From: Octopus sinensis
Taxonomy: Eukaryota
Length of the DNA: 64,000 nucleotides
Assembly (NCBI RefSeq): GCF_006345805.1
Contig: NC_043001.1
Coordinates: 5,270,001 to 5,334,000, forward strand
Direction: 5' to 3'
This document shows positions 57,228-58,788 of this stretch, piece after piece. Each line of letters begins with the position of its first letter. Position 1 is the stretch's first letter. The position numbers were made by a program.

Positions 57228-58788
57228 TTGTTATCGCCATCTAATATGGCATTCTTATAAAAATAAGAAAAAAGCTGACGCTTATTAGCTCCATGAGGCC
57301 ATCGCCTTAAGTTAGCTATTTGATACACAAACTGTATCCATATAACCTTTGAACAAGGGGGTCAGTCGCTCCACACTACTTGGCTACGCTGCTGAAAAGG
57401 GGCAATACCCCGAAACGCGTCTGTAGCTGCCGGCCAAGTAGTGTGGAGCGACTGACTCCTTGTTCAAAGGTTATATGGATACAGTTTGTGTATCAAATAG
57501 CTAACTTAAGGCGATGGCCTCATGGAGCTAATAAGCGGTCAGCTTTTTTCTTATTTTTATAAGAATGCCATATTAGTATGGCGATAACAAATATTTTCCG
57601 GGAACGCTGCCGTTGTTCTCTTTTAGAGAGACTTAGTAATTTTAATATTTCTATTATTGAAAACAAGTGGATGTATTCCACCGAAGCTAGGTAAATAAAA
57701 CCTTTGAACAGAGATGTCGGAAGCGACACCTACTGGTTTGGCTACGCTGCATTGAAAAGGGGCAATACCCCGAAACGCGTCTGTAGCTGCCGGCCAAGTA
57801 GTGTGGAGCGACTGACCTCCCTTGTTCAAAGGTTATATGGATACAGTTTGTGTATCAAATAGCTAACTTAAGGCGATGGCCTCATGGAGCTAATAAGCGG
57901 TCAGCTTTTTTCTTATTTTTATAAGAATGCCATATTAGTATGGCGATAACAATATTTTCCGGGAACGCTGCCGTTGTTCTCTTTTAGAGAGACTTAGTAA
58001 TTTTAATATTTCTATTATTGAAAACAAGTGATGTATTCCACCGAAGCTAGGTAAATAAAACCTTTGACAGAGATTGTCGGAAGCGACACCTACTGGTTTG
58101 GCTACGCTGCATTGAAAAGGGGCAATACCCCGAAACGCGTCTGTAGCTGCCGGCCAAGTAGTGTGGAGCGACTGACCTCCCTTGTTCAAAGGTTATATGG
58201 ATACAGTTTGTGTATCAAATAGCTAACTTAAGGCGATGGCCTCATGGAGCTATAAGCGGTCAGCTTTTTTCTTATTTTTATAAGAATGCCATATTAGTAT
58301 GGCGATAACAAATATTTTCCGGGAACGCTGCCGTTGTTCTCTTTTAGAGAGACTTAGTAATTTTAATATTTCTATTATTGAAAACAAGTGGATGTATTCC
58401 ACCGAAGCTAGGTAAATAAAACCTTTGAACGAGATTGTCGGAAGCGACACCTACTGGTTTGGCTACGCTGCATTGAAAAGGGGCAATACCCCGAAACGCG
58501 TCTGTAGCTGCGGCCAAGTAGTGTGGAGCGACTGACCTCCCTTGTTCAAAGGTTATATGGATACAGTTTGTGTATCAAATAGCTAACTTAAGGCGATGGC
58601 CTCATGGAGCTAATAAGTCGGTCAGCTTTTTTCTTATTTTTATAAGAATGCCATATTAGTATGGCGATAACAATATTTTCCGGGAACGCTGCCGTTGTTC
58701 TCTTTTAGAGAGACTTAGTAATTTTAATATTTCTATTATATATATATATATATTATATATATAATATATATATAATATATATATATAT

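What the first reader, a model, noticed from the sequence alone, without database searches (positions are those of the whole stretch)
57385..58739. 360-bp tandem hammerhead array: candidate retrozyme / circular-RNA system
Seen: about 3.8 almost identical non-coding units inserted in (TA)n, each with a minimal type I HHR; predicted cuts after C57421, C57781, C58141 and C58502 give 360/360/361-nt monomers. Known: non-LTR retrozymes in other animals are tandem few-hundred-bp HHR repeats that yield circRNAs and are thought to spread by rolling reverse transcription; palindromic helix III (ACGCGT) permits double-hammerhead cleavage between neighbouring units. Inference: a young, possibly active family; I do not know of its description in this lineage. 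Unit differences are mostly 1-nt indels that may be sequencing error.
Basis: partly seen in the sequence, partly recalled or inferred. Interest (0 to 1): 0.9.

Follow-up and report, generated by a model that had tools for sequence, protein, structure and literature searches.

The report
Tandem hammerhead repeat, retrozyme-like insertion
A 360-base non-coding repeat carrying a variant hammerhead self-cleaving RNA motif sits in a (TA)n tract with the marks of retrotransposition, so it looks like one more animal 'retrozyme', a known kind of circular-RNA mobile element, not a new system.

Summary
The array is real: TRF gives 57380-58739, period 360, 3.8 copies, 98% matches.

Two corrections:
- **The hammerhead is not canonical.** The core box reads TTGAAAA, not CTGANGA, so the C3-G8 pair is replaced by U3-A8. 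This covariation is documented in nature. Rfam finds no hammerhead at any threshold tried.
- **Only 3 of 4 copies pass.** With U3-A8 allowed, my type I descriptor hits three sites in the 64 kb, with cuts after 57781, 58141 and 58502. It hits none in 100 window shuffles or 3000 unit shuffles. The leftmost copy (cut 57421) has a 2-nt deletion in the core and fails.

Partial tandem, inverted 5'-truncated copy and a (TA)n target are the published hallmarks of Penelope-like-element integration. The circular monomer folds far better than shuffles (z = -4.8) and keeps helices I and II.

Verdict: most likely a non-LTR retrozyme-type element, a new member of a known kind. Cleavage, circles, dispersal and host lineage could not be tested.

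The parts
57190..57227 (.). Left (TA)n tract that the insertion abuts
   Evidence: TRF period 2, 19.5 copies; sequence
57224..57384 (-). Inverted, 5'-truncated partial copy of the unit (unit positions 12-174). Its outer end merges with (TA)n through ATAT.
   Evidence: blastn 97.6% over 164 columns on the minus strand; inverted repeats I1-I4, I7-I9; 0-1 substitutions and 3-5 gap columns against the units
57380..57421 (+). Direct unit positions 317-360. This is a hammerhead copy with a 2-nt deletion in the core box (CTGC--TGAAAA). Its cleavage-site triplet and palindrome are intact. It overlaps the inverted copy by 5 nt (TTGGC, 57380-57384).
   Evidence: blastn 95.5% over 44 columns; alignment A1; fails the descriptor
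57422..57781 (+). Unit 1 (360 nt), counted from the predicted cut site
57782..58141 (+). Unit 2 (360 nt), the monomer that was folded
58142..58502 (+). Unit 3 (361 nt)
58503..58739 (+). Partial unit 4 (positions 1-237). It ends in ...CTATTAT and runs into (TA)n.
57746..57787 (+). Hammerhead motif 1: helix I GCTGCA/TGTAGC, core TTGAAAA (starts 57752), helix II GGGG/CCCC with loop CAATA, GAAA, helix III tip CGCG, cut after C57781
   Evidence: descriptor hit; pair probabilities for the identical motif of unit 2
58106..58147 (+). Hammerhead motif 2, identical to motif 1; core starts 58112, cut after C58141
   Evidence: helices I and II present in the MFE of the circular monomer
58467..58508 (+). 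Hammerhead motif 3, identical to motif 1; core starts 58473, cut after C58502
58737..58862 (.). Right (TA)n tract that the insertion abuts
   Evidence: TRF period 2, 65 copies

Best explanation
This is one insertion of a non-autonomous, non-coding hammerhead repeat of the animal 'non-LTR retrozyme' kind.

Shown by the sequence:
- There are 3.8 near-identical 360-nt units.
- Three of them carry a type I hammerhead whose C3-G8 core pair is replaced by U3-A8.
- Helix I has 6 bp and helix II has 4 bp.
- Helix III is too short to stand alone (A-T, and at most C-G). Its six bases ACGCGT are palindromic.

Inferred, RNA side:
- The array is transcribed as a multimer.
- Neighbouring motifs pair through the palindrome into a domain-swapped double hammerhead, in which each core cuts the partner's GTC| site.
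- A host RNA ligase closes them into highly self-paired circles.

Inferred, DNA side:
- This copy arose when a circular or multimeric RNA was reverse transcribed at a nick in a (TA)n tract.
- Priming at the AT-rich stretch ...TATTAT (unit position about 237) gave 3.8 direct units.
- A second priming from the other target strand at ...AAATAT (unit position about 174) gave the inverted 161-nt piece.
- The two cDNAs joined at a 5-nt overlap (TTGGC).
- The enzyme is most likely the RT/GIY-YIG endonuclease of an autonomous Penelope-like element encoded elsewhere.
For: Array and units.

Hammerhead motif:
- The descriptor (helix I >=5 bp; box [C/T]TGAN[G/A]A with positions 3 and 8 pairing; helix II >=3 bp with G10.1-C11.1; GAAA; <=12 nt; TH) finds 3 sites in 64 kb on both strands, all in the array.
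- It finds 0 sites in 100 window shuffles and 0 in 3000 unit shuffles.
- U3-A8 is a documented natural covariation. It is reported in several hammerheads and said there to be active in vitro (PMC3088659, passages). About 1300 motifs with it were retrieved in Schistosoma mansoni, after it was seen in a Cercyon PLE (PMC4209133, passages).
- Helix sizes 6/4/1-2 bp with a palindromic tip, acting as a dimer, are how that paper describes most metazoan type I hammerheads. The axolotl and newt repeats of 330-350 bp behave this way (PMC7229834, section 15).

Folding:
- The circular monomer has MFE -108.6 kcal/mol against -82.5 +/- 5.5 for 200 shuffles, z = -4.77, with 0 of 200 as low.
- Helix I pairs have probability 0.93-0.98 and helix II pairs 0.98.
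- The best dimer structure containing the double hammerhead is -56.9, against -58.7 for the dimer MFE and -50.8 for two monomers.

Retrotransposition marks:
- No array end lies at the cut site. The ends are at unit positions 237, about 174 (inverted) and 317. A cleaved linear monomer therefore was not the template.
- Partial tandems, an inverted 5'-truncated copy at the 5' end, a (TA)n insertion bias and undiscernible target duplications are the described PLE hallmarks (PMC8557442, passages).
- (TA)n covers 4.9% of the window, so landing in it by chance is unlikely but not rare.

Fit to the retrozyme description (PMC7229834, sections 13, 14, 17): 150-450 bp tandem units, G+C below 50% (here 41%), no coding capacity, self-paired circles, PLEs as the suspected mobiliser. 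The preprint 10.64898/2026.07.22.740005 agrees (abstract and sections 3 and 14).
Against: - Rfam's covariance models give no hammerhead match at all, even on 91 nt at E<=10.
- I wrote the descriptor after seeing the motif.
- The three motifs are identical, so no covariation supports any helix.
- One of four copies is defective.
- No second copy of the unit lies in the 64 kb. The flanks show no significant similarity to it (21, 89 and 170 of 200 shuffles score as high).
- No PLE-type ORF was seen among the 20 long frames scanned. These gave only LINE-type endonuclease/RT and mariner domains.
- PLE-type hammerheads tested in vitro cleaved poorly even as dimers.
- The indel-only differences point to an unpolished long-read assembly, so copy number and the exact junctions may be inexact.
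Confidence: 0.68

Rival explanations
1. It is a purely local satellite. A hammerhead-bearing sequence, or a chance look-alike, was duplicated at the DNA level by slippage or unequal crossing-over next to an unstable (TA)n tract. It has no RNA-mediated life cycle today.
For: There is only one locus in the window. The units are near-identical. Rfam does not recognise the motif. The preprint's discussion itself invokes unequal crossover for the expansion of such repeats (passages).
Against: - The motif is far from chance (0 of 100 and 0 of 3000 shuffles).
- The strong fold keeps helices I and II.
- Unequal crossing-over does not explain the inverted 5'-truncated copy joined by a 5-nt overlap, nor ends that melt into (TA)n through AT-rich microhomology.
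Confidence: 0.14
2. It is the terminal repeat (pseudo-LTR) region of an autonomous Penelope-like element. Here it has been left as a solo or tandem pLTR stump without its ORF, so it is not an independent non-autonomous family.
For: PLE pLTRs carry type I hammerheads, including U3-A8 cores and palindromic helix III. PLE insertions show the same tandem/inverted architecture and (TA)n bias. In Xenopus, 24 of 57 retrozyme families are homologous to annotated elements, 21 of the 22 matched elements being PLEs, and the similarity lies at PLE termini.
Against: - No RT or GIY-YIG frame lies in or next to the array.
- There are three full head-to-tail units of only 360 nt.
- Helix sizes (6/4) are those the 2014 paper calls canonical. 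They are not the long helix II and short helix I it gives for PLE minimal motifs.
- This rival overlaps the main reading and does not exclude it.
Confidence: 0.12
3. It is an assembly artefact. Noisy long reads across a (TA)n-rich region gave a stuttered copy number or a fold-back chimera, so the 3.8 units or the inverted arm are not in the genome as drawn.
For: Differences between units are nearly all single-base indels, which is typical of unpolished long-read consensus. PLE-type structures are said to cause assembly problems.
Against: - The inverted arm is not a simple fold-back. Its two arms are separated by a 48-nt spacer carrying the hammerhead region, and the junction uses a 5-nt overlap.
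- The repeat itself and its motif would remain real even if the copy number were wrong.
Confidence: 0.06

Closest known systems
Metazoan non-LTR retrozymes (Cervera & de la Pena 2020, PMC7229834; for example the mussel repeats of about 350-390 bp)
   Same: Tandem non-coding units of a few hundred bp, G+C below 50%, and a type I hammerhead in the units. The predicted circle is highly self-paired and leaves the ribozyme free to fold.
   Different: The core pair is U3-A8, not C3-G8. No sequence comparison with any published retrozyme was possible here. Expression and circularity are unknown. The mussel and coral motifs cleave efficiently as monomers, whereas this helix III should need a dimer.
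Newt satellite 2 / axolotl Rtz_331 hammerhead repeats
   Same: About 330-350 bp tandem units. [quoted passage not shown] Cleavage is poor for monomers and efficient for dimers (PMC6155905 passage).
   Different: Those are vertebrate families with a canonical core and conserved loop 1-loop 2 contacts. Here the core is U3-A8, and loop contacts cannot be judged.
Hammerheads in pseudo-LTRs of Penelope-like elements (Cervera & de la Pena 2014, PMC4209133)
   Same: The U3-A8 covariation is described there, along with a palindromic helix III and action as dimers. The tandem plus inverted insertion architecture and (TA)n bias of PLEs (PMC8557442) match this locus.
   Different: There is no RT/GIY-YIG ORF here. 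The helix sizes are the 'canonical' 6/4, not the minimal type (helix II 7-8 bp, helix I 4-5 bp, extra base between positions 9 and 10.1).
Schistosome Sm-alpha SINE-like hammerhead repeats
   Same: Non-coding repeated elements of an invertebrate with a type I hammerhead, often in tandem (PMC6765202 passages).
   Different: That review describes them as each having its own promoter ahead of the ribozyme. No promoter could be assessed here, and no sequence comparison was made.

Membership tests
Hammerhead ribozyme, type I | Three helices around one junction, with helix I open towards the rest of the RNA and helices II and III capped | tested here: met
   Descriptor hits at 3 sites with helix I 6 bp and helix II 4 bp. 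Both helices are in the MFE of the circular monomer, with pair probabilities 0.93-0.98. Helix III is only A-T (plus C-G), so as a monomer it is marginal.
Hammerhead ribozyme, type I | Conserved core: C3 U4 G5 A6 N7 G8 A9, G12 A13 A14, A15.1-U16.1, H17 | tested here: inconclusive
   U4, G5, A6, A9, G12, A13, A14, A15.1-U16.1 and C17 are present. C3 and G8 are replaced together by U3 and A8. This covariation is reported as natural and said to be active in vitro, but it was not assayed for this RNA.
Hammerhead ribozyme, type I | Match to the curated Rfam hammerhead covariance models | tested here: not met
   0 matches at gathering score in the window. No hammerhead family among the 6 matches at E<=10 on 57150-58900. 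0 matches on 58085-58175. That Rfam holds hammerhead models is recalled, not shown by a call.
Hammerhead ribozyme, type I | Site-specific self-cleavage | not testable with these tools
   Needs in vitro transcription of monomer and dimer constructs.
Non-LTR retrozyme | Short tandem repeats of about 150-450 bp | tested here: met
   Period 360, 3.8 copies; definition.
Non-LTR retrozyme | A type I hammerhead in every repeat (the preprint's criterion for an 'active' element) | tested here: inconclusive
   3 of the 4 motif copies pass and the leftmost fails. All three full units end in a passing motif.
Non-LTR retrozyme | Non-coding, low G+C, no LTRs | tested here: met
   No frame above 85 aa inside the array. 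G+C is 41%. There are no terminal direct repeats other than the units themselves. PBS and PPT motifs were not searched for.
Non-LTR retrozyme | Highly self-paired predicted circular RNA | tested here: met
   MFE -108.6 against -82.5 +/- 5.5, z = -4.77, 61% of bases paired.
Non-LTR retrozyme | Expressed as linear and circular RNA of unit length | not testable with these tools
   No transcriptome is available.
Non-LTR retrozyme | Many copies dispersed in the genome; co-occurrence with PLEs | not testable with these tools
   Only the 64-kb window is held. It has 0 further copies and no PLE domain among the 20 frames scanned. The rest of the genome is not available.
Penelope-like element (autonomous) | ORF with RT and GIY-YIG endonuclease between pseudo-LTRs | tested here: not met
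   No long frame in or beside the array. The RT/EN hits of the window are LINE-type and lie 25 kb or more away. It is therefore not filed as a PLE.
PLE-type insertion architecture | Partial tandem, inverted 5'-truncated copy at the 5' end, microsatellite (TA)n target, no discernible target duplication | tested here: met
   against the description in PMC8557442. The 30-40 bp 'tail' described there was not seen.

The most novel reading that the evidence does not exclude
The locus is a fresh footprint of how animal retrozymes integrate. A circular RNA carrying a U3-A8 hammerhead of canonical helix sizes was copied for nearly four rounds by a Penelope-type RT primed on a (TA)n nick. A second, opposite-strand priming gave the inverted arm. 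This would make it a member of a currently active family in a lineage where none has been characterised. It would also give sequence-level evidence for twin-primed rolling-circle reverse transcription, which the literature I read proposes only as a model. A further unexcluded detail is that the two alternative 6-nt partners for the strand after the cut site (registers 2.6 kcal/mol apart) act as an on/off switch that protects the circle from re-cleavage.
Probability: 0.25. Interest if true: 0.55.

Novelty: new member of a known kind. Interest (0 to 1): 0.33.

Why it matters
If it is active, it adds a retrozyme family with a U3-A8 catalytic core. That would be a natural test case for how far the C3-G8 pair can be exchanged in a ribozyme that must work as a dimer.

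The insertion has direct units, an inverted 5' arm, microhomology at all three joints and no end at the cut site. It is a readable record of the integration step, which the papers I read treat as hypothetical.

For genome annotation it is a reminder that Rfam-based scans miss this class entirely.

It does not open a new kind of system. Tandem hammerhead repeats that give circular RNAs, and their link to Penelope-like elements, are in print (2014, 2020, 2021, and a 2026 preprint).

Tried and rejected
Rfam:
- I ran three searches. No ribozyme family matched.
- The six matches at E<=10 are gCoV-5UTR, mir-3149, mir-297, SpF44 and RT-2 twice (17.7 and 15.9 bits against a gathering score of 40). All are far below gathering, and they sit on the AT repeats, on the inverted repeat or, for the two RT-2 rows, on unit sequence (the better one spans a hammerhead motif). 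I take them as chance.

Alternative register of helix I:
- GCTACG could pair with TGTAGC, leaving a 12-nt strand in place of the 7-nt box.
- I rejected it as the main fold. Its pair probabilities are 0.01-0.02 and its best structure is -106.0 against -108.6.

Other checks on the array:
- Minus-strand ribozyme: the descriptor found none and Rfam found none. The minus-strand circle folds less well (-94.0).
- Older diverged copies in the flanks: local alignments are not above shuffles.
- Coding capacity, including an endless frame in a 360-nt circle: all frames carry stops.

Host lineage:
- There are no tRNA genes and no Rfam genes.
- Pfam found only LINE and mariner fragments.
- Simple repeats of period <=6 make up 10.6% of the window. 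From memory, such density recalls some decapod crustacean genomes. No tool here can test that, so I make no claim.

Searches elsewhere:
- A scan of 185,579 prokaryotic genomes for a 23-nt stretch of the motif found 0 stretches.
- A full-text search for the same 23 letters found 0 papers. Figures and supplements are not searched.

Papers not held:
- Przybilski & Hammann 2007 and Lunse et al. 2017 are not in the library. What I say of them comes from passages and reference lists of other papers.
- The twin-priming model for 5' inversions of LINE-1 is recalled from memory. No paper on it was read.

Left unchecked:
- Supplements were closed. The supplementary figures of PMC4209133 (hammerheads of shrimps, mosquitoes and rotifers), those of PMC7229834 (other invertebrate retrozymes, the integration model) and the preprint's tables may already show this family or this architecture.
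No eukaryotic genome collection was on hand. Dispersal of the unit and the presence of PLEs in the host therefore stayed unchecked.
- Complex prediction, structure prediction, fold search and the atlas were not used, because the feature is non-coding.
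Full report
**1. What is there**

TRF finds one long-period array in the region: 57380-58739, period 360, 3.8 copies, 98% matches, 1% indels. The units are 57422-57781 (360 nt), 57782-58141 (360), 58142-58502 (361) and a partial 58503-58739 (237).

(TA)n lies directly on both sides, at 57190-57227 and 58737-58862.

Pairs of units differ by 0-2 substitutions and 2-6 gap columns (6 pairs). This is the indel-only pattern of unpolished long-read consensus, or of truly identical units. 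The unit has 41% G+C. No stop-to-stop frame longer than 85 aa lies inside the array.

A blastn search with unit 2 against the window finds only the array itself. Every other hit has E >= 0.6.

**2.

Left of the array, 57224-57384 is an inverted copy of unit positions 12-174 (97.6% over 164 columns, and inverted repeats I1-I4 and I7-I9). It is followed by direct unit positions 317-360 (57380-57421). The two pieces share the five bases TTGGC (57380-57384).

The outer end of the inverted piece passes into (TA)n through ATAT. The right end of the array stops at unit position 237 (...CTATTAT) and passes into (TA)n. None of these three ends is at the predicted cleavage site.

**3. The ribozyme motif**

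The motif is not the canonical hammerhead box. Units 1-3 read, in DNA letters: GCTGCA / TTGAAAA / GGGG-CAATA-CCCC / GAAA / CGCG / TC | TGTAGC.

Read as a hammerhead, this gives:
- helix I of 6 bp;
- core U3 U4 G5 A6 A7 A8 A9;
- helix II of 4 bp with G10.1-C11.1;
- G12 A13 A14;
- A15.1-U16.1 enclosing CGCG;
- C17 as the cut nucleotide.

The C3-G8 pair is therefore replaced by U3-A8.

Rfam release 15 gives no match at gathering score in the whole window. At E<=10 on 57150-58900 it gives no hammerhead (6 unrelated weak matches). On the 91 nt around one motif it gives nothing at all.

It finds 3 distinct sites in 64 kb on both strands, all in the array (9 rows for 3 sites). It finds 0 sites in 100 dinucleotide shuffles of the window with helix I >=5 or >=4 bp, and 1 site in 100 shuffles with >=3 bp. 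It finds 0 in 3000 shuffles of the unit.

The leftmost copy (before 57421) has lost two bases of the box (alignment A1). This gives a C3/A8 mismatch and a broken helix I, so it fails the descriptor.

**4. Is a U3-A8 hammerhead credible?**

Perreault et al. 2011 (PMC3088659, passages) state that C3 and G8 pair and covary to U3 and A8 in several natural hammerheads. They add that such exchanges had been proven active in vitro, citing Przybilski & Hammann 2007, which I could not read.

Cervera & de la Pena 2014 (PMC4209133, passages) found the same covariation in a Cercyon Penelope-like element of Schistosoma mansoni. A descriptor with that core retrieved about 1300 hits.

The same paper describes most metazoan type I hammerheads as having helix I of 6 bp, helix II of 4 bp and helix III of 1-2 bp capped by a small palindromic loop. 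Such motifs are inactive alone and active as a dimer of two neighbouring copies. The present motif has exactly these sizes.

The PLE motifs they assayed cleaved poorly even as dimers, so activity here is an inference.

**5. Folding**

The 360-nt monomer folded as a circle has MFE -108.6 kcal/mol. For 200 dinucleotide shuffles the mean is -82.5 +/- 5.5, giving z = -4.77, and 0 of 200 are as low. 61% of bases are paired. The minus strand gives -94.0.

In the ensemble, the six helix I pairs have probability 0.93-0.98 and the four helix II pairs 0.98. A competing register (GCTACG with TGTAGC) is 2.6 kcal/mol worse. Helix I continues into a long imperfect stem formed by the two ends of the unit.

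This agrees with the statement that most metazoan retrozyme circles leave the hammerhead free to fold (PMC7229834, discussion).

For two 82-nt segments, the best structure containing the domain-swapped double hammerhead has intermolecular helices I and a 6-bp ACGCGT helix III. It scores -56.9, against -58.7 for the unconstrained dimer and -50.8 for two monomers. It is accessible, but it is not the predicted optimum.

In that arrangement each core cuts the partner's site. The intact site at 57421 could therefore still be cut by a neighbour's core, while the defective left core could not cut in return. This is inference.

**6. How the locus probably arose**

Craig et al. 2021 (PMC8557442, passages) describe PLE insertions as follows:
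- 5'-truncated partial tandems;
- often an inverted 5'-truncated copy immediately at the 5' end;
- a strong insertion bias for microsatellites, (TA)n for Naiads;
- target duplications that cannot be discerned.

All four points hold here. (TA)n makes up 4.9% of this window in 21 blocks, so the target is suggestive and not proof.

No end is at the cut site, and the cut-site junction is crossed intact four times. The template therefore was longer than one unit, either a circle or an uncleaved multimer.

The simplest scheme is target-primed reverse transcription starting where ...TATTAT of the RNA can pair with the nicked TA repeat. It would run for 3.8 units. A second priming from the opposite target strand at ...AAATAT would give the inverted arm, and the two cDNAs would join at TTGGC.

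The twin-priming idea is recalled from the LINE-1 literature and was not read here.

No RT/GIY-YIG frame lies near the array. The 20 longest frames of the window gave only Exo_endo_phos_2 (29941-30996), RVT_1 (12051-12725 and, below Pfam's cut-off, 31725-32189) and a mariner transposase (52496-53353). The element is therefore non-autonomous.

**7. Comparison with what is known**

Cervera & de la Pena 2020 (sections 13-15 and 17) define animal non-LTR retrozymes by these features:
- 150-450 bp tandem repeats with type I hammerheads;
- low G+C;
- no LTR, PBS or PPT;
- expression as 170-400 nt linear and circular RNAs.

They are found in cnidarians, molluscs (mussel, about 350-390 bp) and amphibians (330/350 bp, dimer-dependent). 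By bioinformatics they are also found in rotifers, platyhelminths, annelids, crustaceans and insects.

A 2026 preprint (10.64898/2026.07.22.740005; abstract, sections 3 and 14, passages) finds them by TRF plus hammerhead descriptors. It reports that 75% of families have at most seven repeat units. It also reports co-occurrence with PLEs in 32 of 35 species.

The present array meets the structural criteria. The criteria that need a genome or RNA could not be tested. It is not an autonomous PLE, because it has no ORF.

**8. Verdict**

The interpretation as a retrozyme-type element is the best reading.

- The ribozyme is a U3-A8 variant that is invisible to Rfam, and one copy is broken.
- Near-identity of units says nothing about family age, because one rolling event makes identical units.
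- The kind of element is already described.
- New here are at most the family itself, the combination of canonical helix sizes with a U3-A8 core in a tandem repeat, and a clean insertion footprint.

Interest is moderate to low (0.33). Novelty: new member of a known kind.

**9. Limits**

- There was no eukaryotic genome or transcriptome collection. Supplements were closed.
- The host lineage is unknown.
- The three good motifs are identical, so no covariation test of the helices was possible.
- The shuffles test composition, not ancestry.
- The descriptor was fixed after inspection.

Noticed in passing
window 1-64000: Very high simple-repeat load. Repeats of period <=6 cover 10.6% of the window, and (TA)n alone covers 4.9% in 21 blocks of up to 649 bp. 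Long (TTC)n, (TGA)n, (TTA)n and (TATC)n tracts are also present. This says something about the host genome, but I could not name the host.
   Followed up: partly
window 29941-32189 (+): Fragmented non-LTR retrotransposon. A frame with an Exo_endo_phos_2 endonuclease domain (E 6.3e-09) lies at 29941-30996. A frame with a weak RVT_1 match (26.8 bits, below the 29.6 cut-off) lies at 31725-32189.
   Followed up: no
window 12051-12725 (-): A second reverse-transcriptase fragment (RVT_1, E 2.6e-08). No GIY-YIG domain was seen in the neighbouring frames scanned.
   Followed up: partly
window 52496-53353 (-): Mariner-type transposase remnant: Transposase_1 (E 6.2e-21) plus the HTH of Mos1 transposase (E 1.9e-06) in one 285-aa frame.
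   Followed up: no
window 58955-59047: A small hairpin-forming element sits between two (TA)n tracts, just right of the array. It has imperfect inverted arms of 23 and 17 nt (91% and 88% complementary) around a T-rich spacer. There is no second copy in the window. It may be a MITE-like remnant.
   Followed up: partly
window 57224-57593: The inverted arm and the first direct unit together form a near-perfect hairpin of about 160 bp if transcribed (-295.8 kcal/mol). The defective hammerhead lies in its loop. Read-through transcription would give long double-stranded RNA against the family. This is speculation and was not tested.
   Followed up: partly
window 10695-10922 and 3462-3623: Two other tandem repeats of longer period: 113 bp x 2.0 (92% matches), and a perfect 30-bp unit x 5.4 inside an AC-rich tract.
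   Followed up: no
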